Shown here piece by piece: positions 8,235 to 42,615 of a DNA stretch of 64,000 bases. The position numbers and the translations under genes were made by a program. This DNA comes from a bacterium (GTDB lineage: Bacteria > Patescibacteriota > Patescibacteriia > Patescibacteriales > UBA12465), in the NCBI GenBank assembly GCA_035400585.1, contig DAOMZR010000002.1, forward strand, positions 145,121-209,120. The letters are read 5' to 3'. Each line of letters starts with the position of its first letter. The stretch's first letter is position 1. Under the pieces are notes generated by a model, which was not told the origin of the DNA, did not search any database, and was given only the letters and a program-made list of their open reading frames with translations.

Positions 8235-11200
8235 TTATTGAAAACACATATAAGAACCACCAGAATCGTAACAACCAAAATCAGCATAAACATGTGTGTC
8301 ACTGCTTATAGTAAAAGAACAATAAGGCTGAGAGCCAAAACATGGACCAGTCCAATTTTCAAAAACAGTAGGAGAATATGCTGAAGCTTCTAGGTTAATT
8401 GTTGAACCATTGTTGACAGTATATTCACACATAAAGTCGGTGCAATTTCCTTTATATGAACCATTTTCTTGTACTGAGACATTTGATCCATATTCATAAC
8501 CATTGATAAAAACAGTGAGTGTTCTAGGCATTGAAAGTGTCGTAAAATTAGCAACCAAACTACTGTAAGCAGTGCCGGCGCTGTTTATAGCATAGGCTCT
8601 AACATAATACATTGAACCAGGGGTTAGGCCGGTTATATTAGACGTAAACGCTCCAGTTCCACTACCACTAACAATTTTAGTGCCAGTGCTTGTTGTAGGC
8701 AAAGTACTAGTTTTAGAATAGACAACGCCTCTTTCTGTGACAGTTGCCCCACCATCACTGGTTACATTACCACCCGACACAGCTGATCCGGTAGTAATAC
8801 TGCTGGTCGGAGCAATGGTAACCGTAGGCAAAGTAACCGCGCTAACCCATTTAGCATACAAAGTTATATTAGATGTTTGATTATAAATGGTCGAAGAAGT
8901 ATATCGAGTACCAGTACCATTTATGCCAGTAAACCAATCACTAAACATGCTTCCACTTTTGGTTGGCGTTGGTAAAGTTCCAATGGCGGAATTATAAGTT
9001 ACAATCTTGCTACTTGGTAAAACACTTCCCCCATCAGCGTTAAAAGATATTGTATAAGTATTAGCTGTCCATTTAGCATACAAAGTCACGCTAGCTGTTC
9101 CCATCGTATAACTAGCTCCGTTAGAATAAATAACCGAGCCAGTAGAAGACGTTGCCCAACCAGCAAAAGAATAACCGGGCTTAACAAATTGATTAAGGGT
9201 CAAATTAGCACTAGCCCCACTAATTATAGATTGACTAGCCATAGTTCCAGTAGCTGAAGCGTCATTTTTATCAAAAATAACAGAGTAGGTTATTGGGGTC
9301 CATTTAGCATACAAAGTAACCGGACTAGTTGTCATGTCCCAAGTTCTAGCACTACTCATTGAATTTGTATAATATTGCGAACCCAGACCACCAGTCTGAT
9401 TGTAATAGCCACCGAAAGAATAACCACTTCTTACCGGAGAAATAGCTGTCGGCATAGCCGATCCATAAGTGGCAACAACACTGCCAGTTCCACTGGTTCC
9501 ACCCTGAGAATCTAAATTGACTGTACTTATGAAGGGCGTCCATTTAGCATAAAGTATTAATCCTGTGCTCGGTATTTGAATCACTGCATTTGGCAAATAA
9601 TTAGAACCAGTTCCATCGGTTTTTGTATTCCAACCGACAAAATTATATCCAGTTTTAACCAATCCACCCTGTCCAGCAATTGTTACATTGGTGCCAGTAT
9701 CTCCTGTTTGAGTTGCCGGAGCTGTCCCCCCAGTTTGACCGTTGCCATTGTAACTAACCGATGAAGTCGTTTTGGTTGTAAAAGGAAAAGTTGATCCATA
9801 AACCGTCCCGAAAGAACTAGTGATATAGGATTTAACTGAATATTCTATGCCAGGAAATAAATTAGACATAGTTAAGGAAAAAGATCCAGAACAAGAAGAA
9901 GAAACAACTTTTGTTTCCGAGACAAAATGACTAGAATCATTAGACCAATATATTAAACCGCACTCTGAAATAGATACATTGCTTGGATTTGAGATTGTCC
10001 CACCAGAAGTAGCCGATGAACTAGTTATATTACTTACATTGGTTGTTGATATACTAGGGGCAACTGGCAAAACAAAAGTTTTGGTATCGCTACTAACACC
10101 AACTCTATCTCCATAAGAATCTCTATTCATGGCAAAGGATTTAAAATAATAAGTCACTCCTGGAGTAAATTTGGAGACAGAAACGCCCTTGCTGAAAGTT
10201 CCAATAGCGTAAGGACTGTTGGCTAAAATACAATTATTAACGTTTAAACTACAAGCACCGATGTACGTTTCTAGAGATGAAGCTGAAGTGCTCCAAACAA
10301 AACCCATTGCTAAAATAGCACTACCAGAAACTAAATCACCGCCACCATTGTCTGACAAATATCCACTAAAATTAATATTTCCACTAGCCAAGGTTTGTTG
10401 ATTGACAGTTACAACCGGATAATCAGCTCTAGTTTTAAAACTTTTGGTTGCTCCGTAAGAAATGCCTGCCTGATTAACCGCATAAGCTCTATAATAATAT
10501 AGATAATTTCTAGTTAAATCGGAAAGTGTGTGTATGTAAGAAGAATTGTCGGATATAGATGCTTCATAGCTACAACCATTATTAGACGCACAAGAGGAAA
10601 CATTAGCAATGCTCAAATTTGAAGATGCTGGCGAGGTTACACATCCTCTACCGCCAACATAATTGCCACCAGCAGATATTATGCGCCCGTTGCATTTAAA
10701 AGAATTCGAGGTTACGTCGGAATGAGATACCGTTTCTACCTCCGGTTTAGTAAAAACACTAAAATTATGAGTACCCTCGCTAGACATTCCAAAGCTATTG
10801 GTAATTTTAGCTTTTATGGTTTTTGCCCCCAAAGAATTAGCTACGCCAGATAAAGTTTTATTAGCAGCGCTAAAAGTTAAAAAACTTGGTTTTTCAATTA
10901 TATCTACTGTAATATATTCGCCCGGCTTGCTAGAAGATATCTCACAACTATAATTATTATTTAGAGCCACCGAATTAGAGCAGTTGTTAAAAACTATACT
11001 TGGAACATCGGCTGTAAAAGTAATATTAAAATTAACTGAGGTTTGCGCTTGATGAGGGTCTTTGGCTGTAATTTTAAAACGATGAGTACCAACGTGGCTA
11101 GAATTAAAAACATTAGGAGTGTTTATCGAATATTTGTTTTTAATCACTAAGGAATAGCTCTCTTTATTAGCATCTAAAATAGATAAAACCATTACCAACT

Positions 11201-12980
11201 TATTGTTAAATAAAGCGCTTCCAGTAAATTCAACTAATTTATCGACGTCAGGTTTTATTTCCCAAGTATTTACGCAATTATTTGATAAGTCTAATTGACA
11301 AACTATTAATGTTTGTAATTTACTCTTGTCGTTTATAGAGATTGGAAAAGAGAAGTCCTGACCAGAACTAAGATTACTGCTGTAGTTTGAACTAACCTGA
11401 ACTGAAGGATTTTGATTAGCTATATATATCGGAAAATTTTTGATTGTTTCATATCCAGAAGAATTCTTAACTGAAACTCCAATAATATATCTTTTGTTTT
11501 TTTCCTGAACAGTAGGAGAGTCTATTGGTTGAGAATCACCGGCAATAGTAGATTTTAATAAAATTGTTTCATCAGAATTAGTTAATTCACGAGCTGGATA
11601 TTTGTTTGGCGTCCAACTGGACCAGTTCGATTCAGAGCAATCGGTTATAATTGTATTATCTGGGTAAAGCGGTTTTCCTGGTATGCAACCAGAAACAACC
11701 CAACTAAGTGCTTGATCTCTTGGATCTTTAGCTTTTATATATCCCTCGAAAGAAGTCCCACTATGACCAGTCATTAAGGCTTCTTCGAAATAGGGGTTAT
11801 TATATTGTGGTAATTCATCATCCACTGGAATGTATGGAGGATTAAAGTCATCAGTGTTTTCACCAGATGGCAAGGTAAAAGATTCACCCCAATATTCTGA
11901 TGATTCCATTGGAGAATAAATACTAGCCGATAAGCCCTTCGGATCACTTACATAAGAAAAAACTGAACTGTATTCTGGTAAAACAAAATTAGTATAATTA
12001 ACTGGCTTTTCAGTACTTAAAAACACCGCCTTGTCATTTTCCCAACAAGTTAGAAGATCAAAATTTGAATTTTCATCATAGCAAGAACTTATTCTATTAA
12101 TAGAGTCGGTAACACCGGAAACGCTAATTTGGTTTAAAAATGTTTGCTGCCAACTTGGCCAAGAAGAAATAGCCACATAAGGAACATAGGTTCCGGACGA
12201 TAAAATAGGGTAGTGACCATTTAAGTTTTTATAAGCTTCTAATTTTGTTTTGATTATTTTTAATTTTTCCAATCTTTCCACATCTCTAATCAGCATTGAT
12301 TTTGGACTATCACAAAAAAGATTGTTTGGACAATCAGAATCTAATAAACAAGCCGGGGTATTGACTGGTTCTTTATTATAGTCATCTTCTTTTATTATAC
12401 ATCTGTTTTTTTGGTATATTTTCCCAACAACATTTACTTCCGAAGAGTCATTTAACAGGTGAGCTGAATCCTGCCCAACATAACCGCCACAAATATAACC
12501 ACTGGGACAATCTGTTTCTGACTTACAAATTTTACTAGAAATACTACAATGACCAATTTTATCTTTTAAGTTAGTATTCAATTTCCAATTTTTCAAAATT
12601 TTTCCAAAAATATCGATGGTATTATCATCAGCTTCTTGGTTATAAGAAATTAAATAAATATTAAAATAGATTTTATTATTTTCTAAATCAATATTAGCGG
12701 CTGAAATATATACAGTTCTGCCATCTCGAATTGCCTTATAGCCATCAACTATTAAAGACTGCGGGGATCCAGTAAACCCTTGCATTTTATACCATTGTTG
12801 AATGTTATAATTTTCCGGGTTTGGAATGACACGAATAGCAATAGCATCTGGGTCGTTTTCACCCAAAGAAGAAACACTGTCCTCTGAACTTGGTGCGGCC
12901 AAAACAAAAAGAGGAAGTATTAAAAAAAATAATAATACAAAAAAGCTTTTAAAAAAATTTACTCTCATTTTTTTAAACAT
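8235..12980 (-). CDS. Giant secreted surface protein (1581 aa) with FN3/Ig-like domains and four or more C-terminal Listeria-Bacteroides (Flg_new) repeats
   Basis: It has an N-terminal signal peptide (FFVLLFFLILPLFVLAAPSS). Modules ending in LYAKWT recur four times (GYNFVGWNTKTDGTGSNY..LYAKWT, GYSFGGYYNQTGG..LYAKWT, GYSFAGWATSSTG..LYAKWT, ..LYAKWV), which matches the Flg_new/List_Bact repeat pattern. Confidence 0.7.
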   Translation of the reverse strand: MFKKMRVNFFKSFFVLLFFLILPLFVLAAPSSEDSVSSLGENDPDAIAIRVIPNPENYNIQQWYKMQGFTGSPQSLIVDGYKAIRDGRTVYISAANIDLENNKIYFNIYLISYNQEADDNTIDIFGKILKNWKLNTNLKDKIGHCSISSKICKSETDCPSGYICGGYVGQDSAHLLNDSSEVNVVGKIYQKNRCIIKEDDYNKEPVNTPACLLDSDCPNNLFCDSPKSMLIRDVERLEKLKIIKTKLEAYKNLNGHYPILSSGTYVPYVAISSWPSWQQTFLNQISVSGVTDSINRISSCYDENSNFDLLTCWENDKAVFLSTEKPVNYTNFVLPEYSSVFSYVSDPKGLSASIYSPMESSEYWGESFTLPSGENTDDFNPPYIPVDDELPQYNNPYFEEALMTGHSGTSFEGYIKAKDPRDQALSWVVSGCIPGKPLYPDNTIITDCSESNWSSWTPNKYPARELTNSDETILLKSTIAGDSQPIDSPTVQEKNKRYIIGVSVKNSSGYETIKNFPIYIANQNPSVQVSSNYSSNLSSGQDFSFPISINDKSKLQTLIVCQLDLSNNCVNTWEIKPDVDKLVEFTGSALFNNKLVMVLSILDANKESYSLVIKNKYSINTPNVFNSSHVGTHRFKITAKDPHQAQTSVNFNITFTADVPSIVFNNCSNSVALNNNYSCEISSSKPGEYITVDIIEKPSFLTFSAANKTLSGVANSLGAKTIKAKITNSFGMSSEGTHNFSVFTKPEVETVSHSDVTSNSFKCNGRIISAGGNYVGGRGCVTSPASSNLSIANVSSCASNNGCSYEASISDNSSYIHTLSDLTRNYLYYYRAYAVNQAGISYGATKSFKTRADYPVVTVNQQTLASGNINFSGYLSDNGGGDLVSGSAILAMGFVWSTSASSLETYIGACSLNVNNCILANSPYAIGTFSKGVSVSKFTPGVTYYFKSFAMNRDSYGDRVGVSSDTKTFVLPVAPSISTTNVSNITSSSATSGGTISNPSNVSISECGLIYWSNDSSHFVSETKVVSSSCSGSFSLTMSNLFPGIEYSVKSYITSSFGTVYGSTFPFTTKTTSSVSYNGNGQTGGTAPATQTGDTGTNVTIAGQGGLVKTGYNFVGWNTKTDGTGSNYLPNAVIQIPSTGLILYAKWTPFISTVNLDSQGGTSGTGSVVATYGSAMPTAISPVRSGYSFGGYYNQTGGLGSQYYTNSMSSARTWDMTTSPVTLYAKWTPITYSVIFDKNDASATGTMASQSIISGASANLTLNQFVKPGYSFAGWATSSTGSVIYSNGASYTMGTASVTLYAKWTANTYTISFNADGGSVLPSSKIVTYNSAIGTLPTPTKSGSMFSDWFTGINGTGTRYTSSTIYNQTSNITLYAKWVSAVTLPTVTIAPTSSITTGSAVSGGNVTSDGGATVTERGVVYSKTSTLPTTSTGTKIVSGSGTGAFTSNITGLTPGSMYYVRAYAINSAGTAYSSLVANFTTLSMPRTLTVFINGYEYGSNVSVQENGSYKGNCTDFMCEYTVNNGSTINLEASAYSPTVFENWTGPCFGSQPYCSFTISSDTHVYADFGCYDSGGSYMCFQ

Positions 12981-12987
12981 AAATTTA

Positions 12988-15900
12988 TTAAGATATTTTT
13001 ATTAAAGAAAAGTCATCAATATAAAAATCACTACCGAGAGCAACCGTATCGGCATAACTTAGAGTTATAGCAAATTCCATCATTTTAGTATAATCACTTC
13101 TTAGCCATAAAGACATTTTGTCATTATATTCAAAAGTTTGAAAATAAGTTTGCCAGTCAACATAGTTGCCAGCCAATATATTTTTAGAAACAACGCCGGT
13201 ATAGCATTTAGTTTGAGCTGGTGATTGAACACAACAATAATTAGCTTGTTCTGAGCAAGGATATCCTCTTCCGCTAGCACAAGGATTTTGTCCCTCAAGA
13301 GGTGTCGGACTGAGCGCTCCATTTAACCAGACAAATGGCGATCTCAGGGCTGTTGGAGAAGACATGGCCATACACTGGCTAGACCAGCCAGAAGAGGGGG
13401 AAATATTAACAGTTATTTCTCCAACAGAATTACCTTTATAGTTAAACTTAACTGCGTATTTTTCGTTTTGTTTAAAATTCAAAGACAAAAGATTATATTT
13501 TAAACTAGCCCAAACAACTCTATTGGTATTCATCCAACAAAAACTCTCTCCTTCTTGATATATGGCTGGGGCTGTTTTTTTACAATCATCAGCATTGCTA
13601 AATCTGCAAGTTTTGTTTACATTGTCCCAAGTGCAACCAGACATGCTACTACAAAGAGCCTGGCCACATTTGCCAGGATAAACGTGTCCCGATTCTTGTT
13701 TAATCAGAACGCTTTTGTTTCCGGAGTTACTAGTCAAATTGCTAACCCCAATTGAAGAATATGTTTTCAGGGATTTTGACCATCCCGGTGGCAAACCGCT
13801 AATATCAACCGATTCAAAATCAATATTGTCAAATATATACTTAAACAAACTCACCGTTGGATCATTAAAATAAACAAAAACCTCTGATGATTTTTCACTT
13901 TCTTCTCCAGCTGGATTGATGGAACTTATAACAAAATAGAAAGTATCGTTTTGAGTTCCGGCCAAGCTGATAGTCACCTCAGTTGAATTATTTTGTGTTA
14001 AAATAGAATTACCATAAACACCAGAAACAGCACCCCTATAAACTTTATATTTAGAAACTTCACTGGCAGGAGCAGTCCAAGAAACTTTTATTAAACGATC
14101 TTCGTGAGAAAGTATTTCAACTTTTGGACTGGTTGGTTTATCGGAAATATTTGAACTAGTCGGGGTAACAGAAACAGTAGAAGAAAAACCAGTTTCAGCT
14201 AAATTTTCACTTAAAGCGGTTATTTTTATTTCATAAGAAATATAATTGGTAAGGTTGCTCAAAGTATAACTACATTTATATTTGTTATCTTCAATAGTGC
14301 AAACATTTGCTGGATCTACAACTTCTTCTTTATAAACACTCTCTTCGTTTGTTTTATAGTAAATTTTATACTTATCAACTAAAGAAGTTTCTGACTCCCA
14401 GATAATTTCAACCTCCCCTCCGTCTCCCGTGTCGTTAGATGAGATAGAATTAACAAATCTAGGAATTCTTTCTTTAAAGAAATAAGCTTCCTTCAAAAAG
14501 TTAGATATACAAAGTCCGCCCGCAGGGCAATCACCATCATTAGAACAAATTCTGCTAGGCAAATTACTACAAGTTCTTATTGGGCTTTCTCCTTTAATAA
14601 TTGCTAAGTTACTTAAAAACGCTGGAAGATCATCACTGGTTGTGTCTTCTCCAGAATCACGACAGTAGTAAAATTCATAATTATAATAACCAAAGGAACT
14701 GTCGGAATCTCTCCAAGGAGACCAAGTTCCATCATTTTTAACTGGCGGCCAAGGATTTTTACAAACAAAAACGTAAGCCATAACATTGCCAGCTGTGTTG
14801 TTGCCATCTAAAATAGTATTGGTATCGTCCATTTTTACTTTAGCAGCTATTGTAGTTTGAGCATCGCTAACATTTTCTTGAACAGCTATTAATCTTTTAT
14901 CACCATTTGTCGACCAAGAAACAACTTCGTCCTTAAATCCCAAAACGTCTTGAGATCCAATTATCCAATCCCAAGTCCAAGAATAGCCTAAGACTGGTTT
15001 TAAAATCTGATTATCTTTTGAAAGAGCATAAGAATAATATGCTTTATCATAATCTTTCTCAGAATCAAAAGTACTGCTATTTGAATCGTTGTCATTCTCT
15101 TTTATACTGTTTGTATTTTCAGGAAATAAATACGAATCTGGTGAAATCAAAACTTTATCAACGCTACATATTCCCCCTTGATCGGCTGGAGTATTCATAG
15201 TCGTAAATGAGAAAACGTGAGAGTTGACAAAATTTAAATTATTAAATCTTAAACGATTATCATCTCCCTCAACCCAGCTGGTATCGGAAATTTTATACCC
15301 ACGTCCGTTCATTCCAACTCCTTGATAGTTAAGTATACCGCTGGTACTGTCAAGCGCGGAATCACCTTTTACAACCACAAAATATTTTGCGCTTTCTTTT
15401 AATAAAGATTTTGGCTGAAAAATAGCCACCGTTGTTCCATCCGGATTATTTCTAAAATCAGTTGTGCCTAAAACAGAACAATAAATCTTGTCGCTAGAGG
15501 TTATATCCCCTACAACTCCAGCCAAGACATCAATTTTAAATACTCTGCTCAAATAATATAAAGGTTTTTTTATTAAATTTTTTAATTTTTCAAAAATAGT
15601 TAAATCGTTTTTGTAGCTTATAAAATATGTACCAGAAGAACAAACTGAGGAGTTTTCTTCTAATAAAAGAATGTTGTCTACAAAAGACATGTTATCCATT
15701 TTTTGATCAAAAGTAATAGAGATTGCTGCATTATGGCAAACTCCTTGTTGTTCGTTTGTCGGAGATGTTTCCGTAATGTTCGGCCTAGCCTGACAACAAG
15801 TATCAAAACCACAACCAACATTTTCTGGGTCTAAACCAGCGCTTGTACAGTCGGTGTCAGAACCACAACCACAACACAAACCTCTTTCTTGTCCAGAGCA

Positions 15901-27402: not shown

Positions 27403-27488
27403 AAAATTAAATCACTTTTTAGAATTAATATTTTAAAAAGTAATTTTTAAATATTATATTTTATTATAATAAAGAAATAAACCTAAAA

Positions 27489-28733
27489 TTATTTTTTATA
27501 AATAGGGAACTTTGCACAAAGATTTTTTACTTTTTCTTTGATTTCGTTTAAAGCATTATCATCATTTTTATTTTTCAAGACCAAATCTATTAATTCTGTT
27601 GTTTGCAAAACTTCATTTTCTTTAAAACCACGAGTAGTGATGGCTGGAGTTCCAATTCTTATTCCTGATGGCTTCATTGGAGGGGCCGGATCATTAGGAA
27701 TAGTAGAGCGAGAAACGGAAATTCCTGCTTTTTCTAGAGCCTGTTCTGCTTCTAGACCAGAAATATTTTTATTTCTTAAATCTACAACCATTAAGTGATT
27801 ATCTGTTCCACCAGAGACTATATCGTAGCCTAGTTCTATAAATTTACTAGCCATGGTTTTAGCGTTTTTTATTATTTGCTCTGAATAAATTTTGAATTCT
27901 GGTTTAAGGGCTTCTTTAAAGGCAACCGCTTTAGCTGCTGTTATGTGATCATGTGGCCCACCCTGCATTCCAGGGAAAACAGCTCTATCAACTTGTTTGG
28001 CAAATTTTTCTTTGCACAAGATAAAGGCTCCACGTGGACCGCGAAGAGTTTTGTGGGTTGTACTAGACACCACATCAAAATAGGGGACCGGACTACTTAA
28101 ACATCCACCAGCAATAAGGCCGGCAATATGAGCAATGTCAGCAAAAGTATAAGCACCAATTTCGTCGGCAATCTCTTTAAATTTTTTCCAATCTAAATCA
28201 CGGGAATAAGCACTAAAGCCAGCAACTATCATTTTGGGTTTTTCCTTTAATGCCACCTCTCGAACTTTTTCCATATTAATTATTCCATTTTCAGCTACCT
28301 CATATTGAACAAAATTATATAATCTGCCAGAAAAATTAACACTATGACCATGAGATAAATGTCCTCCGTGGTCCAATTTTAGACCCAAAACTTTATCACC
28401 TGGTTCCAAAAAAGCCATATAAACAGCAGCGTTAGCCGGAGAGCCAGATAAAACCTGAACATTGGCATGTTCGGCACCAAAAAGTTTTTTTAATCTTTCA
28501 ATGGCTATAGTTTCTACTTCATCAATAACAGAATTGCCCCCATAATATCTTTTATTTGGATATCCCTCACTATATTTGTTATTTAAAGATGAAGCCATTG
28601 TTTCCAAAACAGCTTGAGAGGCATAATTTTCAGAAGCAATTAGCTCTAATTCATCTTCTTGTCTGTTTGTCTCCTTGTTTATTAAATCAAGAATTTCTTG
28701 ATCAATATTTTTTAAATTTTCAAAACTTGGCAT
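27489..28733 (-). CDS. glyA: Serine hydroxymethyltransferase
   Basis: The 414-aa ORF has [12 protein letters not shown], the PLP-Lys loop [15 protein letters not shown], and [13 protein letters not shown]. Confidence 0.9.
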
Positions 28734-37910: not shown

Positions 37911-39035
37911 TTACTGTCTTATTGGCATGACAATATACAAGAATTTTTCATCTTCTTTTGTTTGTATCTTACAGGGGGTGTTTTGATCAAGAAAAGAAAA
38001 CAAAATATCTTTTCCGAAAACATTATTTAAACCCTCCAAAAGATATTTATAGTTTATAAACAATTCTACCTCCTCCCCTTTTGTTTTACAGTCTATTTCA
38101 ATAAAATTTTCCCCCACCTGTGAAGAGTTTGAAAAAATAATTAATTTATCCTTTTTAACAGAAAGACCAACGTCATTTATTCCTGTTTTAGAAAAAAGCC
38201 CCGCCGTCTTTATAGCCCTAGTTATTTCGGTTTTGTCTACTAACAACTCGGTTTTTTTATTACTAGGGATTATTTGCTTATAATCAGGATAACTGCCAAC
38301 TATCAACCTAGAAACTAAAAGAGAAGATCCAAAAGAAAAGGAAATTTGATTGTCGTTAAAGCAGATTTTAATGCTATCCATATTTTCTATTTGTTCATCT
38401 TCTTTAAAATTATTTAAAATTCTTACAACCTCCTGTATTGTTTTTATCGGGACTATTATTTTTTTTCCATTTAAATCTTTGTCTGATTTAAAATCAATTT
38501 TTCTTTCAGCTAAGCGATAGCTATCCGTTCCAACCAAAAAAAGATCTTTATCAACAAAAGAAAAAAAGATGCCAGATATTTCTGGTCTACCCTCGCCAGA
38601 AGAAACGGCAAAAGAAACGCTCCCAATGTTTTTTTTAAAATCACTTGTTTTAACAAAAAAACAAGATTCATTTTCAATGGTTGGTATAAGCGGAAAATCA
38701 ACGCTTGTTTGTGTATTTATTTTTGTTCTATAGTTTTTACACTTTATTTTTAACTCATCATTTACTGTTTCTATTTCTATTTTTTCTTCTGGAAGCAAAG
38801 AAACATATTCATTTATTATTCTAGAATCAACGGTAAATTCACCCTCTTCTTCGACTTTTGATCTTAAAAAGTGAACTATACTAATTTCTAAATTAGTTGA
38901 GACCAACTCCAAGCCCTCTTTTTTAGCTCTAAACAAAATATTATTTAAAATTGGCAAATTAATATTTTTAGTTGTGAGGTGTCCAACTATGTTTAATCCT
39001 TGTTTTAAATTTTCTTTTAGACTAATTAGTCTCAT
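37911..39035 (-). CDS. dnaN: DNA polymerase III beta sliding clamp
   Basis: The 374-aa ORF starts MRLISLKENLKQGLNIVGHLTTKNINLPILNNILF, has a three-domain length, and sits immediately downstream of dnaA. Confidence 0.85.
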   Translation of the reverse strand: MRLISLKENLKQGLNIVGHLTTKNINLPILNNILFRAKKEGLELVSTNLEISIVHFLRSKVEEEGEFTVDSRIINEYVSLLPEEKIEIETVNDELKIKCKNYRTKINTQTSVDFPLIPTIENESCFFVKTSDFKKNIGSVSFAVSSGEGRPEISGIFFSFVDKDLFLVGTDSYRLAERKIDFKSDKDLNGKKIIVPIKTIQEVVRILNNFKEDEQIENMDSIKICFNDNQISFSFGSSLLVSRLIVGSYPDYKQIIPSNKKTELLVDKTEITRAIKTAGLFSKTGINDVGLSVKKDKLIIFSNSSQVGENFIEIDCKTKGEEVELFINYKYLLEGLNNVFGKDILFSFLDQNTPCKIQTKEDEKFLYIVMPIRQ

Positions 39036-39330: not shown

Positions 39331-40791
39331 TTATAATGATCCGTATAAAAGTTGTTTAATAGATATAATTTCCTGATTTAGTTTTTCGTTTTCTTCTTTT
39401 TCTTTGTTTATTTTGTTATAGGAGTGTATGGCGGTTGTATGGTCTCTTCCTCCGAGTTCTTCTCCTATTGTTGGGTAAGAGGTGTTTAGCTCCTCTCTCA
39501 TTAAGAAAATGGCAACCTGCCTTGGCAAAACCAATTCCTTTTTTCTTTTTTCTCCGAGAAGATCTTTATTGCTGATATTATAATATTGGCAAACAACCTC
39601 TATTATGTCTTTTGGTATAATGGGTTTTATTTGGTTATTGTTGGTTAGGTCGTTTAAAATGTTTTTAACCGTTCTGATATTTGGGCTAATATTGTGAAAT
39701 TCGTGATAGGCAATTACCTTGTTTAGGGCCCCCTCTAGTTCTCTTATATTATTTTGAATGCTGTTAGAAATATATTTTAATATTTCTTCCTCTAATATAT
39801 AATTTCTTTCTCTGGCTTTCTTTTCTAAAATTGCTATTTTAGTTTCAATGTCGGGTTTTCCTATGTCGGCCACCATTCCTGATTCAAAGCGAGAAATTAA
39901 CCTCTTTTCAATGGCTGGTATGGCCTTTGGGGGCCTGTCAGAAGAAAGAATAATTTGTTTGTCTCCTTGTTGTAATTGATTAAAGGTATGAAAAAACTCT
40001 TCTTGGGTTCCGTCTTTTCCACCCATAAACTGAACATCGTCTACTAAAAGCAAATCAACGTTACGATAAAGATTTTTGAATTCTTTTGCTCGGCCACTTT
40101 TAATGGAATCAATATAGTTGTTGGTAAATTGTTCACTGGTAGTATATAAAACCTTTTTGCTCATTTTAATAAATTCGTTTCCTACTGCTTGCAGTAAATG
40201 AGTTTTTCCGAGACCAACACCACCATATATAAATAATGGGTTATAAGATTTTCCTGGATTTTTTATAATTGCCTGGCAAGCAGCACAAGCCAACTCGTTG
40301 GCCTTGCCGATAATAAAGCTAGTAAAAGAGTATTTAGGATTAAGGCCAGAGTTGCCTAAATTAATTTTTTGTTCGTGATTTTCCTTGGTTGTTTCTTTTT
40401 CGGTTGGTTCTTTTGTTTTTTCAACTTCGTTTTTATTTTCCCCATGATCATTTTTTTGTTCTTTTGATGAAGATTCTTTTTTTTCTAAGTTTATTTTATA
40501 AACAATTTCTTTTATTTTTTTTTCGGTTATTTTTTCTAAAGAAGATTTTATAGCTTTATAATATTTTTGCTCCAACCATCTTTTGGCAAAATCGTTGGGA
40601 ACCGAGATGGTTACAATTTCTTCTTCTATACTATATATAAAAGTGTTTTTGAACCAGGTAATAAAGTTTGCTCTAGATATTCCTATTTCTAGTTCGCCAA
40701 GAACGGCTTGCCAAATTTGATCGTTGGTCATAGTTCTTTTTTTAAGTCTAAAAATTATTTTCATTATAGTAAAAAAAACGACTTTGAACAA
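39331..40791 (-). CDS. dnaA: Chromosomal replication initiator protein DnaA
   Basis: The 486-aa ORF has an AAA+ Walker A (GGVGLGKTHLLQAVGNE), a box VII region, and the C-terminal DNA-binding signature ..GGRDHTTAIHSYNKI. Confidence 0.9.
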   Translation of the reverse strand: MFKVVFFTIMKIIFRLKKRTMTNDQIWQAVLGELEIGISRANFITWFKNTFIYSIEEEIVTISVPNDFAKRWLEQKYYKAIKSSLEKITEKKIKEIVYKINLEKKESSSKEQKNDHGENKNEVEKTKEPTEKETTKENHEQKINLGNSGLNPKYSFTSFIIGKANELACAACQAIIKNPGKSYNPLFIYGGVGLGKTHLLQAVGNEFIKMSKKVLYTTSEQFTNNYIDSIKSGRAKEFKNLYRNVDLLLVDDVQFMGGKDGTQEEFFHTFNQLQQGDKQIILSSDRPPKAIPAIEKRLISRFESGMVADIGKPDIETKIAILEKKARERNYILEEEILKYISNSIQNNIRELEGALNKVIAYHEFHNISPNIRTVKNILNDLTNNNQIKPIIPKDIIEVVCQYYNISNKDLLGEKRKKELVLPRQVAIFLMREELNTSYPTIGEELGGRDHTTAIHSYNKINKEKEENEKLNQEIISIKQLLYGSL

Positions 40792-41176
40792 TTACTTTTT
40801 TTGTTTAGCAATTGTTTATAAGATGTGAATAAGTTTTTTTTGTTTTTATGAGGGGTTTAAAAATTTTTATAAAATAAGTTTATATTTTTTTAAAATTATT
40901 TTTTAGTTTTTCTTTTTTGTTATAATAAAAACATAAAGATAAAAAGCTCTATTTTTATATAATGTGTATTAATGAATTTTTGGTTAGAGCTTTTTGGAAA
41001 ATATTTAAAATAAGCAGATAAATGATTTTGAACAACTGATATAAAAATTTAAATAAATTTACTTTAGTCGTGTGGTGAAATAGCGGCAATTTAAGTGAGC
41101 CAATGGTTTTTTCGTTTGCTTTACAATAAGATAAAGTTTACTTGACAATAGTATAATTTTACTTTACAATATAAAT
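40792..41176. promoter_or_regulatory. AT-rich region upstream of dnaA, candidate oriC / dnaA promoter
   Basis: The 385-bp intergenic region is less than 20% GC. TGTGAATAA at 40824..40832 has one mismatch to a DnaA box. Gene-strand polarity switches here. Confidence 0.4.
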
Positions 41177-42202
41177 ATGAACAAAAAAAAAGGTAAAATT
41201 AAAGAATTTATCTATAAAAATATATCTCAACACCCCGGAAATATTGTTGCTTTAGTGGCGGAAAATTTTGGTATTTCAAGACAGGGTGCTTATTTGTATG
41301 TTGCTGAAGAAGTGAAAAAGGGCAATATTATAAAAGTTGGACATACAAGATCGGTTCGTTATTTTTTGATTGGTGGCGACAAAATTGAATTTAGTCTCAA
41401 AATAAAATCGGGACTAGAGGAGGATAAGGTTTGGTCAAAATATGTTAAACCAATGATTTTGAAATATGATAACAATGTTCAAAAAATTGTTAATTATGGT
41501 TTTACAGAAATGTATAATAACGCAATTGATCATTCCGGTGGTACCGTTATACATAGTAAGATTCAAATAGTTAATAATAAAATAATAATTATTATAATGG
41601 ACAATGGTGTGGGAATTTTTAAAAAAATTCAAGAAGCTTTATGTTTAGATTCTGTTAGAGAGTCAATTCTCCATTTGTCTAAGGGAAAGTTTACTACTGA
41701 TCCAACCAAACATACGGGTGAAGGTATTTTTTTTACTTCAAGGGTGTTTGATCATTTTTCGATACTTTCCAGTGATATGTATTATGGTTTTGAAAACGAA
41801 GACTGGTGTCTTTCCAATGAAAAAAAAGAGAGTTTTGGTCAAGGCACTTTAATACAAATGATAGTTTCTGTTTATTCAAAAAAAAGCCCGAAAGAAATAA
41901 TGGATAAATATGCCGATCAAGAAATCGGCTTCGGCAAAACAATAGTTGCGGTGGCTTTGAGTTCCGATCCTAACGATCCCCATGTATCAAGATCTCAGGC
42001 TAAGCGCTTGATGATGGGGCTAGATAAATTTAAAACTGTAATATTAGATTTTAAAAATGTAATTTCAGTTGGCCAAGCTTTTGTTGATGAAATATTTCGA
42101 GTCTTTAAAAATGAACATCCCGACATAAACATTCAATATGTTAATGCTAATGATGAGGTTAAAAACATGATAAAAAGAGGTTTATCAGTGATCAAATTAT
42201 AG
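41177..42202 (+). CDS. Fusion protein: N-terminal winged HTH, GHKL-type (histidine-kinase-like) ATPase, and C-terminal STAS-like (DUF4325-like) domain
   Basis: The 341-aa ORF has an N-box (EMYNNAIDHSGG), a G1 box (DNGVGIF) and a G2 box (GEGIFFTS). The C-terminal VILDFKNVISVGQAFVDEIF resembles a STAS/anti-sigma-antagonist-like fold. The N-terminal 60 aa are HTH-like. Confidence 0.55.
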   Translation: MNKKKGKIKEFIYKNISQHPGNIVALVAENFGISRQGAYLYVAEEVKKGNIIKVGHTRSVRYFLIGGDKIEFSLKIKSGLEEDKVWSKYVKPMILKYDNNVQKIVNYGFTEMYNNAIDHSGGTVIHSKIQIVNNKIIIIIMDNGVGIFKKIQEALCLDSVRESILHLSKGKFTTDPTKHTGEGIFFTSRVFDHFSILSSDMYYGFENEDWCLSNEKKESFGQGTLIQMIVSVYSKKSPKEIMDKYADQEIGFGKTIVAVALSSDPNDPHVSRSQAKRLMMGLDKFKTVILDFKNVISVGQAFVDEIFRVFKNEHPDINIQYVNANDEVKNMIKRGLSVIKL

Positions 42203-42220
42203 ATTTTTATTAAAAAACCA

Positions 42221-42255
42221 AAATAAAAAAACTCACTTTATAGTGAGTTTTTTAT
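42221..42255 (+). terminator. Rho-independent terminator after the 41177..42202 gene
   Basis: The sequence is aaaaaaACTCACTttatAGTGAGTttttt. Confidence 0.5.
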
Positions 42256-42388
42256 GTGGGCGCACAAGGACTCGGTCACGGTAGCTAAGCCTCGCTTAAC
42301 TGCTTCGCAGTTTACGCTCGCCAAGCTCCCCGACCCGGCCTCGGCGGTGCACAAGCGCACATCGCCTCCGGCTTTCGAGTCCTTGTGC
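42256..42388. other. GC-rich (about 65% GC) 130-bp element bounded by a perfect 13-bp inverted repeat; its first 19 nt duplicate the 3' end of adjacent tRNA-Val
   Basis: GTGGGCGCACAAGGACTCG (42256-74) is identical to tRNA-Val 42442-60. The inverted repeat is GCACAAGGACTCG (42262-74) / CGAGTCCTTGTGC (42376-88). The interior is full of short GC hairpins (CTGCGAAGCAG, GTGCACAAGCGCAC). Confidence 0.5.
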
Positions 42389-42442
42389 AAACAAACATAA
42401 AACAAAAATCATCCAAATAAATTTGGATGATTTGTTGTGTAG

Positions 42443-42516
42443 TGGGCGCACAAGGACTCGAACCCTGGACCCCTTCGGTGTAAACGAAGTGCTCTAGCCA
42501 ACTGAGCTATGCGCCC
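42443..42516 (-). tRNA. tRNA-Val (anticodon TAC)
   Basis: GGGCGCATAGCTCAGTTGGCTAGAGCACTTCGTTTACACCGAAGGGGTCCAGGGTTCGAGTCCTTGTGCGCCCA forms a cloverleaf. The anticodon loop is TTTACAC. Confidence 0.85.
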
Positions 42517-42530
42517 TAAATTGTGTCTTG

Positions 42531-42615
42531 TGGGCGAGAGAAGATTTGAACTTCCACGGCCACAATGGCCACAAACCCCTCAAGCTTGCGTGTCTACCAA
42601 TTTCACCACTCGCCC
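42531..42615 (-). tRNA. tRNA-Leu (anticodon GAG), class II with a long variable arm
   Basis: GGGCGAGTGGTGAAATTGGTAGACACGCAAGCTTGAGGGGTTTGTGGCCATTGTGGCCGTGGAAGTTCAAATCTTCTCTCGCCCA has a 3-bp D-stem, a GGCC/GGCC variable stem, and a TTCAAAT T-loop. Confidence 0.75.

What the first reader, a model, noticed from the sequence alone, without database searches (positions are those of the whole stretch)
41177..42202. Single-polypeptide partner-switch-like module (HTH + GHKL ATPase + STAS-like) at the replication origin
One protein combines a wHTH, a histidine-kinase-like ATPase (N, G1 and G2 boxes intact) and a C-terminal STAS/anti-sigma-antagonist-like domain. This resembles an RsbW-type serine kinase fused to its RsbV-type substrate plus a DNA-binding head. 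It sits between oriC/dnaA and a tRNA cluster that carries an integration-like scar, which is a typical position for accessory or defence genes. The function is unknown and the domain calls are from motifs only.
Basis: partly seen in the sequence, partly recalled or inferred. Interest (0 to 1): 0.55.

Follow-up and report, generated by a model that had tools for sequence, protein, structure and literature searches.

The report
Mobile one-gene HTH–kinase–STAS switch
This is a real, horizontally mobile single gene for a DNA-binding, ATP-binding switch protein that carries its own array of repeated binding sites; it belongs to a large uncharacterised family related to newly described phage-defence regulators, and its position next to the replication origin is incidental.

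Summary
The ORF (41177..42202 +, 341 aa) and all three domain calls are confirmed. They are an N-terminal winged HTH, a SpoIIAB/RsbW-like GHKL ATP-binding domain with invariant N, G1 and G2 boxes, and a C-terminal STAS-like DUF4325 domain.

The gene is accessory, not housekeeping and not origin-linked. Close relatives of the host, a Falkowbacteria-like CPR bacterium, carry other cargo in the same tRNA-Val/dnaA slot. Homologues have no conserved neighbour. The CPR-clade gene stays AT-rich in GC-rich hosts. Distant relatives sit in prophage accessory slots.

Nearly every family member carries 3-4 direct repeats of (G)GTT(G/T)ACAAT at a 21-22 nt period just upstream (61/79 loci against 3/500 controls). 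The repeat core changes together with the HTH recognition helix, so the protein very probably binds its own promoter.

The DUF4325 domain belongs to the same Pfam family as VapS, the phospho-regulated antitoxin of the VapKSC system (Chambers et al. 2026). However, the phospho-acceptor serine position is Gln here (75 of 82 members).

Best reading: a self-contained, autoregulated, single-chain variant of the GHKL-kinase/STAS partner switch. Its trigger and output are unknown, and a stress or phage-related role is plausible. It is a new variant of a known kind.

The parts
41115..41171 (+). Array of three direct repeats (41115-41128 TTTGCTTTACAATA, 41137-41150 TTTACTTGACAATA, 41158-41171 TTTACTTTACAATA), spaced 22 and 21 nt. 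Proposed operator for the protein's own wHTH, overlapping the promoter.
   Evidence: family D1. It is the only in-phase TT[GT]ACA[AG] array in 64 kb (shuffles give 0.135 arrays of >=2 copies and 0 of >=3). Equivalent arrays lie upstream of homologues in 61/79 loci against 3/500 control upstream regions. The repeat core changes together with helix 3.
41142..41170 (+). Best sigma-70-type promoter match, TTGACA-17 nt-TACAAT, formed by repeats 2 and 3. The -10 element ends 6 nt before the ATG and there is no Shine-Dalgarno sequence, which is the geometry of a leaderless mRNA.
   Evidence: 11 of 12 matches. In the CPR clade the last -10-like hexamer lies 6-7 nt from the ATG in 11/14 loci, and an SD-like motif occurs in 1/17. 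The transcription start is inferred, not shown.
41177..42202 (+). ORF of 341 aa: a wHTH - GHKL ATP-binding domain - STAS-like (DUF4325) protein.
41177..41401 (+). Winged helix-turn-helix domain (aa 1-75). The recognition helix is aa 35-47 (SRQGAYLYV...).
   Evidence: Secondary structure of the AlphaFold model, Foldseek hits to the LexA and MarR wHTH, and covariation with the upstream repeats.
41471..41881 (+). SpoIIAB/RsbW-like GHKL domain (aa ~99-235): N box E111/N115/H119, G1 D142-x-G-x-G146, lid K169-G-K-x-T-T-D175, G2 H179-x-G-E-G-I-F-F186.
   Evidence: Weak similarity to the kinase cores of CapK and VapK.
41924..42187 (+). STAS-like DUF4325 domain (aa ~250-337). It has an invariant S271-R-S-Q-A-x-R277 segment and G299-Q300-A301-F302 where VapS has its phospho-acceptor Ser48.
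   Evidence: PF14213; RsbV and prestin STAS, rmsd 2.5-3 A; VapS is PF14213; alignment and residue frequencies.
42226..42253 (.). Hairpin with a 12-bp stem, flanked by A and T runs. A bidirectional intrinsic terminator that ends the gene.
   Evidence: (I19).
42256..42395 (-). G+C-rich structured element of about 140 nt. Its low-coordinate end (42256-42274) is a 19-nt copy of the tRNA-Val 3' end, and its other end (42376-42388) is the complement of that copy. It is context for the gene (an att-like scar or an unknown RNA), not shown to be part of the gene's function.
   Evidence: (MFE -74 kcal/mol, z -5.5). No Rfam match.
42442..42516 (-). tRNA-Val(TAC). Its 3' 19 nt are duplicated at 42256-42274. 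It is the likely integration target that makes this slot variable.
   Evidence: The slot's contents differ in relatives.

Best explanation
The locus is a self-contained, horizontally mobile one-gene cassette of about 1.15 kb (41115-42253): a repeat array with promoter, the ORF, and a terminator. It has landed in a hypervariable slot between tRNA-Val and dnaA.

Proposed mechanism:
1. The protein binds, through its N-terminal wHTH, to the three 21-22-nt-phased direct repeats that also form its own -35 and -10 elements. It therefore represses, or at least controls, its own transcription.
2. Direct repeats two helical turns apart imply protomers lined up head to tail on one face of the DNA.
3. The SpoIIAB-like GHKL domain binds ATP. 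The VapS-type STAS-like (DUF4325) domain has Gln in place of the phospho-acceptor serine, so it acts as a non-phosphorylatable pseudo-substrate or partner. It would dock on a GHKL domain either within the chain or on the neighbouring protomer.
4. Nucleotide state or an unknown signal (by analogy with CapK/VapK, possibly single-stranded DNA or another stress or phage cue) would switch this contact. That would change oligomerisation on the operator and free the kinase/ATPase domain for its target.

Shown here: the domains, the intact ATP-binding residues, the repeat array and its co-divergence with the recognition helix, the solitary and mobile nature of the gene, and membership of the same Pfam family as VapS.

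Inferred: DNA binding, autoregulation, head-to-tail assembly, the switch itself, and any role in stress or phage defence.

Confidence by step: accessory mobile cassette about 0.85; wHTH binds its own repeats and autoregulates about 0.7; GHKL/DUF4325 switch controls this about 0.4; the whole chain as stated about 0.45.
For: Domains.

Operator array:
- Three repeats at 41115-41171, the only such array in 64 kb.
- All 19 non-redundant CPR-clade loci, whatever their context, carry 2-4 copies of (GGGG)TTTACAA.
- Relatives of 41-47% identity from many phyla carry 3-4 copies of GGTTGACAAT.
- At least 3 in-phase copies occur in 61/79 focal upstream regions against 3/500 controls. Spacing is 21-22 nt in 131/136 cases.

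Co-divergence of helix and repeat:
- Asn at helix position 39 goes with G in TT[G]ACAA in 77/80 units. Locus-level Fisher p is 1e-7, uncorrected for phylogeny.
- The helix 'RTTVHRH' goes with AGTTAYAA repeats.
- There are about 5 independent clade-level contrasts.

Cassette and mobility:
- DNA similarity to other loci covers only 41137-42187.
- There is no conserved neighbour: 132 flanking genes fall into 127 Pfam families.
- Gene GC3 is 0.21-0.41 whatever the flank GC3 (0.19-0.65). The AT-rich island is the gene alone in L022 and L024.
- The gene is absent from the same slot in relatives with 80% DnaN identity.
- Its identity plateau is flat across CPR lineages, while DnaN decays from 81% to 51%.
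- 53 viral contigs carry relatives next to terS, terL, integrases and repressors.

Link to characterised systems: VapS is DUF4325. The alignment places VapS Ser48 opposite Q300. The CapK-CapS and VapKSC mechanism is described in PMC13373217.
Against: - There is no biochemical evidence for DNA binding, ATP hydrolysis or phosphorylation.
- TTGACA and TACAAT are also the sigma-70 -35 and -10 consensus elements. The array could be, at least in part, tandem promoters rather than an operator.
- The covariation rests on few independent clades.
- A protein that regulates only itself has no output. No second array exists in this 64-kb window and no target gene is linked.
- Inter-domain docking could not be examined because model coordinates and PAE are not available.
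- The alignment of Q300 with the VapS serine covers only 22 columns (E 8e-5).
- The more distant prophage-borne members (34-44% identity) show weaker or different upstream repeats.
- Strong conservation (about 66% identity across about 8000 hits) is unusual for fast-evolving defence genes.
Confidence: 0.45

Rival explanations
1. It is a single-gene anti-phage or abortive-infection system. The wHTH keeps expression low. On infection the STAS-like lock is released and the GHKL kinase phosphorylates host or phage proteins, or the over-produced -35-binding protein blocks transcription, which arrests growth.
For: The gene behaves as a mobile accessory gene. Relatives sit in prophage accessory slots. 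The same slot holds an AbiU2/DUF3800/Schlafen island in L095. DUF4325 proteins act in the VapKSC anti-phage toxin-antitoxin system and occur in a Francisella prophage accessory region. This overlaps with the best explanation, because it only adds a biological role.
Against: No PADLOC model matches. Neighbours are mostly housekeeping genes with no defence enrichment. No recognisable toxin or effector domain is present. tblastn finds no relative in 72,556 plasmids or 50,697 phage genomes. Sequence conservation is high.
Confidence: 0.25
2. It is a regulator belonging to mobile elements themselves, for example a prophage or island switch for late genes, superinfection immunity or lysis-lysogeny. 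The CPR chromosomal copies would be remnants or domesticated copies.
For: In two prophage groups the gene lies between the late transcriptional regulator (phrog_36) and terS-terL. Others lie next to integrases or repressors. Some CPR loci are flanked by IS66 or serine recombinase genes.
Against: In most of 94 chromosomal loci no phage or element genes are nearby, and the AT-rich island is the gene alone. The gene carries its own promoter and terminator and is not linked to a downstream operon.
Confidence: 0.15
3. It is a host housekeeping regulator tied to chromosome replication (dnaA/oriC), as the position at the origin might suggest.
For: The gene is divergent from dnaA and shares a 385-bp intergenic region with it. 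The GC-skew minimum lies nearby.
Against: The dnaA adjacency is unique to this genome among 94 loci. The closest relatives have other genes at this position. DnaA boxes are not enriched in the window.
Confidence: 0.03
4. The upstream repeats are only tandem sigma-70 promoters that give strong or redundant transcription. The wHTH binds somewhere else, or binds something other than DNA.
For: Each repeat contains TTGACA/TTTACA and (T/G)ACAAT. The 21-22 nt period places one repeat's -35 element 17-18 nt from the next repeat's -10 element.
Against: Some clades use AGTTATAA or AGTTACAAT repeats that are not -35-like, together with a different recognition helix. Three to five phased copies occur in 77% of loci against 0.6% of control promoters. 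The conserved G-run and flanks extend beyond the promoter hexamers.
Confidence: 0.12

Closest known systems
VapKSC toxin-antitoxin/anti-phage system: VapK (STAS-GHKL kinase), VapS (DUF4325-type STAS antitoxin), VapC (PIN). Chambers et al., EMBO J 2026, PMC13373217.
   Same: The C-terminal domain belongs to the same Pfam family as VapS. VapS matches PF14213 at E 2.7e-17 and this protein at E 6.4e-14. They share the 'VILDFxNV...F' core, with 41% identity over 22 columns. In both systems a GHKL ATP-binding domain of the anti-sigma-kinase type is the partner. Both are mobile accessory genes.
   Different: This is one polypeptide rather than three genes. There is no PIN toxin. The domain order is wHTH-GHKL-STAS, whereas VapK is STAS-GHKL. 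The phospho-acceptor Ser48 position is Gln300 here. An added wHTH and a direct-repeat operator are present. Kinase-core similarity is only generic (32% over 57 aa).
CapK-CapS regulators of immune operons: CapK is HTH-STAS-GHKL and CapS is STAS-wHTH (PMC13373217).
   Same: The three building blocks are the same: HTH, GHKL kinase and STAS. A wHTH repressor acts on its own promoter, and the logic is a kinase/STAS switch that controls DNA binding.
   Different: CapK-CapS is two genes, always upstream of an immune operon. This is one gene with no linked operon. CapS binds TTAA palindromes as a dimer, whereas here there are 3-4 direct repeats at a 21-22 nt period. Pfam finds no DUF4325 in CapS or CapK. 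The STAS domains do not align. The conserved serine is absent here.
SpoIIAB-SpoIIAA and RsbW-RsbV partner-switching modules.
   Same: These are the best structural matches of the GHKL domain (1til, 1l0o, 8jzt, 6m36) and of the STAS-like domain (RsbV 6m36_I, rmsd 2.5 A). The N, G1 and G2 boxes are conserved.
   Different: No sigma factor or PP2C phosphatase is linked. The two partners are fused to each other and to a wHTH. There is no phosphorylatable serine at the start of helix 2. Sequence profiles do not align the domain to SpoIIAA.
Iteron-type and direct-repeat autoregulation, such as plasmid Rep proteins on 17-22-bp iterons or MraZ on three direct repeats (from general knowledge; analogy for the DNA part only).
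   Same: A winged-helix protein is encoded next to 3-5 phased direct repeats of about 21-22 bp that overlap its own promoter.
   Different: There is no homology to Rep or MraZ and no sign of a replicon (no conserved AT-rich unwinding element or DnaA-box cluster travels with the cassette). Here the binding protein carries a GHKL and a STAS-like domain.

Membership tests
Pfam DUF4325 (PF14213, STAS-like) | Match to the family profile above the curated cut-off | tested here: met
   51.8 bits against a cut-off of 23, E 6.4e-14, residues 274-329 covering profile positions 1-64 of 64.
GHKL / HATPase_c superfamily | Bergerat fold with N box (E..N..H), G1 (DxGxG) and G2 (GxG) motifs | tested here: met
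   All motifs are invariant in 82 relatives. The fold matches SpoIIAB/RsbW. The Pfam score of this one sequence is 23.4 bits, below the 26.4 cut-off, but most homologues carry a precomputed PF02518 hit.
SpoIIAB/RsbW - SpoIIAA/RsbV partner switch | STAS partner with a phosphorylatable Ser/Thr at the start of helix 2 | tested here: not met
   The position aligned to VapS Ser48 is Q300. Ser/Thr frequency is 0% at positions 299-300 and 4% at 301 in 82 relatives. Helix 300-313 starts at Q300 in the model.
SpoIIAB/RsbW - SpoIIAA/RsbV partner switch | Linked sigma factor and PP2C phosphatase genes | tested here: not met
   None is present among the neighbours in the window or in 94 other loci.
CapK-CapS | Two adjacent genes: CapK (HTH-STAS-GHKL) followed by CapS (STAS-wHTH) | tested here: not met
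   This is a single ORF with the order wHTH-GHKL-STAS. No second STAS or HTH gene is adjacent.
CapK-CapS | Located directly upstream of an immune operon (Bub, CBASS, Thoeris...) | tested here: not met
   The gene is followed by a terminator and tRNAs here. Neighbours elsewhere are heterogeneous, mostly housekeeping.
CapK-CapS | Sequence homology to CapK and CapS | tested here: inconclusive
   The GHKL N-box to G1 segment aligns with CapK 212-263 (hhalign E 2e-4, 29% identity). The STAS domains do not align (E 0.4). The wHTH domains align weakly (E 0.003).
CapK-CapS | Kinase activated by single-stranded DNA; phosphorylation releases the repressor | not testable with these tools
   This needs biochemistry.
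VapKSC | DUF4325-type STAS protein paired with a GHKL kinase | tested here: met
   VapS is PF14213. This protein fuses a PF14213 domain to a GHKL domain.
VapKSC | Adjacent VapC (PIN) toxin and a conserved phospho-acceptor Ser/Thr in the STAS protein | tested here: not met
   No PIN gene is adjacent. Gln occupies the acceptor position.
Known anti-phage defence systems (PADLOC-DB 2.0) | Match to any defence protein model | tested here: not met
   0 families at E <= 1.

The most novel reading that the evidence does not exclude
The family is a new class of one-protein signalling or immune module. Identical chains would polymerise head to tail on phased, -35-like iterons, through a trans contact between the GHKL domain of one protomer and the dead-substrate DUF4325 domain of the next. 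On a trigger such as ssDNA, ATP/ADP ratio or a phage protein, the filament would dissolve. The burst of protein would then act as the effector, for instance by occupying TTGACA -35 elements genome-wide or by binding sigma factor as SpoIIAB does, so shutting down sigma-70 transcription. This would be a complete sensor, regulator and effector in 341 residues, spreading horizontally among the reduced genomes of CPR bacteria.
Probability: 0.1. Interest if true: 0.8.

Novelty: new variant of a known kind. Interest (0 to 1): 0.6.

Why it matters
GHKL-kinase/STAS pairs were shown only in 2026 to control immune operons (CapK-CapS) and a toxin-antitoxin system (VapKSC). This family shows the same parts fused into one chain with a DNA-binding head, a serine-less STAS domain and a built-in operator array. 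It is far more abundant than the characterised systems: at least 8000 close relatives and about 920 clusters at 50% identity.

It is also one of the few clearly horizontally exchanged accessory genes documented across Candidate Phyla Radiation lineages, whose mobile gene pool and phage defences are poorly known. The predicted protein-operator pairs differ between clades (TTGACAAT, TTTACAAT, AGTTAYAA). They give a directly testable system for studying how a wHTH reads phased direct repeats, and they could serve as orthogonal regulatory parts.

Tried and rejected
1. Origin or dnaA-linked function: rejected, because the adjacency is unique to this genome.
2. Conserved partner gene: clustering all flanking ORFs of 94 loci and running Pfam on 132 immediate neighbours found none. 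A staphylococcal-nuclease-like gene at +1 recurs only in Nitrospinae-like loci plus two others.
3. Known defence system: PADLOC gave no hit.
4. Plasmid or phage-genome carriage: tblastn found no match. Profile-derived patterns did find 53 IMG/VR viral contigs.
5. Sequence alignment of the STAS-like domain to SpoIIAA (sequence recalled from memory) and to CapS: not significant.
6. Paired comparison of conservation with housekeeping orthologues in the fetched flanks: only one shared orthologue, so not usable. I replaced it with a DnaN database search.
9. Rfam and a viral-contig scan for the G+C-rich element next to the gene found nothing.
10. Model coordinates are not exposed, so inter-domain contacts could not be measured.
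11. The literature has no functional study of DUF4325 under that name.
Full report
**1. Observation.** The window contains an ORF at 41177..42202 (+) of 341 aa, exactly as reported. It lies between dnaA (39331-40791, -; dnaN at 37911-39035, -) and tRNA-Val/tRNA-Leu (42442-42615, -). These are followed by rplS, a cytidylate-kinase-like gene and rnpA-yidD-yidC. Cumulative GC skew is lowest at about 38-42 kb, and the AT-rich dnaA-dnaN spacer has two near-consensus DnaA boxes, so the origin is indeed close.

**2. Domains.**
- Pfam gives DUF4325 (STAS-like) at E 6.4e-14. It gives sub-threshold HATPase_c (23.4 against 26.4 bits) and HATPase_c_2.
- Most homologues carry a precomputed HATPase_c hit.
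- An AlphaFold2 model built on 22 homologues has pLDDT 78 and pTM 0.71.
- Foldseek against the PDB ranks the SpoIIAB, UsfX and RsbW anti-sigma serine kinases first (E 2e-4, target TM 0.63-0.72). It also finds RsbV and the prestin STAS domain for the C-terminal domain (rmsd 2.5-3 A) and the LexA and MarR winged helices for the N-terminal domain.
- In 82 non-redundant relatives (40-100% identity) the ATP-binding residues are invariant: E111, N115, H119, D142, G144, G146, G181, E182, G183. So are a lid motif K169-G-K-x-T-T-D175 and the segment S271-R-S-Q-A-x-R277.

**3. Family and distribution.**
- The word-indexed search returned at least 7996 significant hits. The best 120 are all about 340 aa, 64-78% identical, and come from several CPR lineages: Magasanikbacteria, Sungbacteria, Parcubacteria and unclassified Patescibacteria.
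- An exhaustive profile search of 50%-identity representatives found 3150 clusters (921 below 1e-30). Nearly all are full length with the same architecture. They include Nitrospina, a Tepidisphaeraceae fusion protein and a Bacteroidota-like contig.

**4. The gene is accessory and mobile, not housekeeping.**
- (a) Neighbourhoods differ in every lineage. Clustering all flanking ORFs of 94 loci gave no shared neighbour, and 132 immediate neighbours hit 127 different Pfam families, mostly housekeeping.
- (b) The gene is a single-gene unit with gaps of 100-500 bp on both sides.
- (c) In the CPR clade its GC3 stays at 0.21-0.41 while flank GC3 ranges from 0.19 to 0.65 (slope 0.32). In L022 and L024 the AT-rich island is exactly the gene plus its upstream repeats.
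- (d) DnaN, encoded 2 kb away, identifies the host as Falkowbacteria-like. Its identity decays from 81% to 51% by rank 120. The focal protein stays at about 66% with hits named from other CPR lineages.
- (e) In the closest relatives the slot between tRNA-Val/rplS and dnaA holds a pilin-like N_methyl/Fib_succ_major gene (L096/L097, DnaN 80%; L098, 68%) or a HEPN_AbiU2 + DUF3800 + Schlafen/AlbA_2 island (L095, DnaN 80%), and not this gene.
- (f) blastn shows that in L095 the dnaA-proximal sequence (about window 40798-40838) lies about 45 nt from the counterpart of window 42383-42462. The window therefore carries about 1.5 kb extra.
- (g) DNA similarity to other CPR-clade loci covers only 41137-42187, which is the repeat array plus the ORF.
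- (h) A perfect 19-nt duplication of the tRNA-Val 3' end (T-loop to discriminator) at 42256-42274 supports integrase-type traffic at this tRNA. The gene itself lies outside the two copies.
- (i) 53 IMG/VR viral contigs encode full-length relatives (34-44% identity). Their neighbours are small and large terminase subunits, HNH endonuclease, integrases and repressors. Two prophage groups have the order late regulator - this gene - terS - terL.

**5. A conserved operator-like array.**
- Upstream of the ORF are three direct repeats: TTTGCTTTACAATA, TTTACTTGACAATA and TTTACTTTACAATA (41115-41171, spacing 22 and 21 nt).
- Repeats 2 and 3 form the best sigma-70-type promoter match, TTGACA-17-TACAAT, which ends 6 nt before the ATG.
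- All 19 non-redundant CPR-clade loci have 2-4 copies of (GGGG)TTTACAA(T/AGA) at the same period. The last -10-like hexamer lies 6-7 nt from the ATG in 11/14, and an SD-like motif occurs in only 1/17. This geometry suggests leaderless mRNAs, which is an inference.
- Relatives of 41-47% identity from hosts of 36-66% G+C carry 3-4 copies of GGTTGACAAT at 21-22 nt, followed by longer leaders.
- At least 3 in-phase copies occur in 61/79 focal upstream regions against 3/500 control upstream regions from the same contigs. 131 of 136 spacings are 21 or 22 nt.
- In the 64-kb window this is the only such array.
- The repeat core co-varies with the recognition helix. RQA(V/I)NKH goes with TTGACAAT (Asn39 with G in 77/80 units). 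RQRAHxY, RQASHRH and RQGVLRH go with TTTACAA. R/T-TTVHRH goes with AGTTA(T/C)AA.
- These classes follow clades of the rest of the protein, giving about five independent contrasts. The uncorrected Fisher p of 1e-7 therefore overstates the evidence.
- Because TTGACA and TACAAT are also promoter consensus elements, part of the signal may be promoter architecture. The non--35-like variants and the strict phasing argue for protein recognition.

**6. Comparison with known systems.** I found no paper that treats DUF4325 function under that name. Chambers et al. (EMBO J 2026, PMC13373217) describe two systems:
- CapK (HTH-STAS-GHKL) and CapS (STAS-wHTH). ssDNA-activated CapK phosphorylates CapS Ser54, which dissolves the repressor dimer and de-represses an adjacent immune operon.
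- VapKSC, in which VapK phosphorylates the antitoxin VapS (Ser48) to release the VapC toxin.

I took the sequences from that paper's source data and tested them:
- VapS is a DUF4325 protein (PF14213, E 2.7e-17). This explains the older note that a PIN/VapC subgroup is coupled to DUF4325 genes (PMC5499597).
- CapS and CapK are not called DUF4325.
- The family profile aligns to VapS 29-50 (41% identity, E 8e-5). This places VapS Ser48 opposite Q300, which is Gln in 75/82 relatives and never Ser or Thr.
- The kinase cores of CapK and VapK align only weakly (29-32% over about 50 residues).

This protein is therefore not a member of the CapK-CapS or VapKSC systems. It differs in gene number, domain order, operator type, context and the acceptor residue. 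It is built from the same kind of parts and shares the VapS-type domain.

**7. Mechanism proposed.** See the best explanation. In brief, it is an autoregulated single-chain partner switch. The wHTH binds the phased repeats that constitute its promoter. The GHKL domain and the serine-less DUF4325 domain form a nucleotide- or signal-dependent contact, in cis or head-to-tail in trans, that governs assembly on DNA and release of the ATP-binding domain. The trigger and the output are unknown. By analogy and by genomic behaviour, a stress or phage-related role is the most plausible, but the neighbourhood data do not show defence-island enrichment.

**8. Verdict.** The feature is real, belongs to an abundant uncharacterised family, and is best filed as a new variant of the GHKL-kinase/STAS switch. 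It has an unreported, testable protein-operator design and clear horizontal mobility among CPR bacteria.

Noticed in passing
window 42256-42395 (- strand): A G+C-rich element of about 140 nt (about 60% G+C in a 30% genome) lies between two terminator hairpins. It folds into a Y shape (MFE -74 kcal/mol, z -5.5). Its ends are a 19-nt copy of the tRNA-Val 3' end and the complement of 13 nt of that copy. There is no Rfam match and no exact match in viral contigs. It could be an att remnant, a tRNA-derived miniature element or an unknown small RNA.
   Followed up: partly
L095 2829-6820; L096 831-1982; L098 5949-7151 (the slot upstream of dnaA in close relatives): The tRNA-Val/dnaA slot is a hypervariable hotspot in this Falkowbacteria-like lineage. 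It holds HEPN_AbiU2 + DUF3800 + Schlafen/AlbA_2 genes in one relative and a pilin-like N_methyl/Fib_succ_major gene in others. L095 keeps a fragment of the tRNA-Val 3' end next to dnaA but has no intact tRNA in the 10.4 kb fetched.
   Followed up: partly
window 41165-41179 and the equivalent positions in L001-L025: In the CPR clade the -10-like hexamer ends 6-7 nt before the ATG and no Shine-Dalgarno motif is present, which suggests leaderless translation. Non-CPR relatives have leaders of 5-127 nt, often with an SD-like motif.
   Followed up: partly
P0136 (684 aa, Tepidisphaeraceae): A relative carries about 326 extra N-terminal residues in front of the complete 340-aa module. The extra domain was not identified.
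   Followed up: no
L011 8275-8955, L054 8512-9189, L066 4825-5502, L091 1590-2267, L025 9239-10045: A staphylococcal-nuclease-like (PF00565) gene sits immediately downstream of the family member in Nitrospinae-like loci, in L091 and, on the opposite strand, in one CPR locus. It is the only recurring neighbour, and it may be lineage synteny rather than a functional link.
   Followed up: partly
L133 and L138 groups (IMG/VR prophages), about 9000-13100: In two prophage groups the family member lies between the late transcriptional regulator (phrog_36) and terS-terL, which is a classic accessory-gene insertion point.
   Followed up: partly
window 27428-27504 vs 40884-40962: An AT-rich stretch of the dnaA-upstream intergenic region has a 75-77% similar copy, in both orientations, about 13 kb away. 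It may be a low-complexity coincidence or a dispersed repeat.
   Followed up: no
L019 2434-2994; L025 6050-7501: Some CPR-clade copies lie next to other accessory genes: an AbiEii-like nucleotidyltransferase, and an archaeal-type ATPase_2 + DUF234 + HTH protein. There is no consistent pattern.
   Followed up: no
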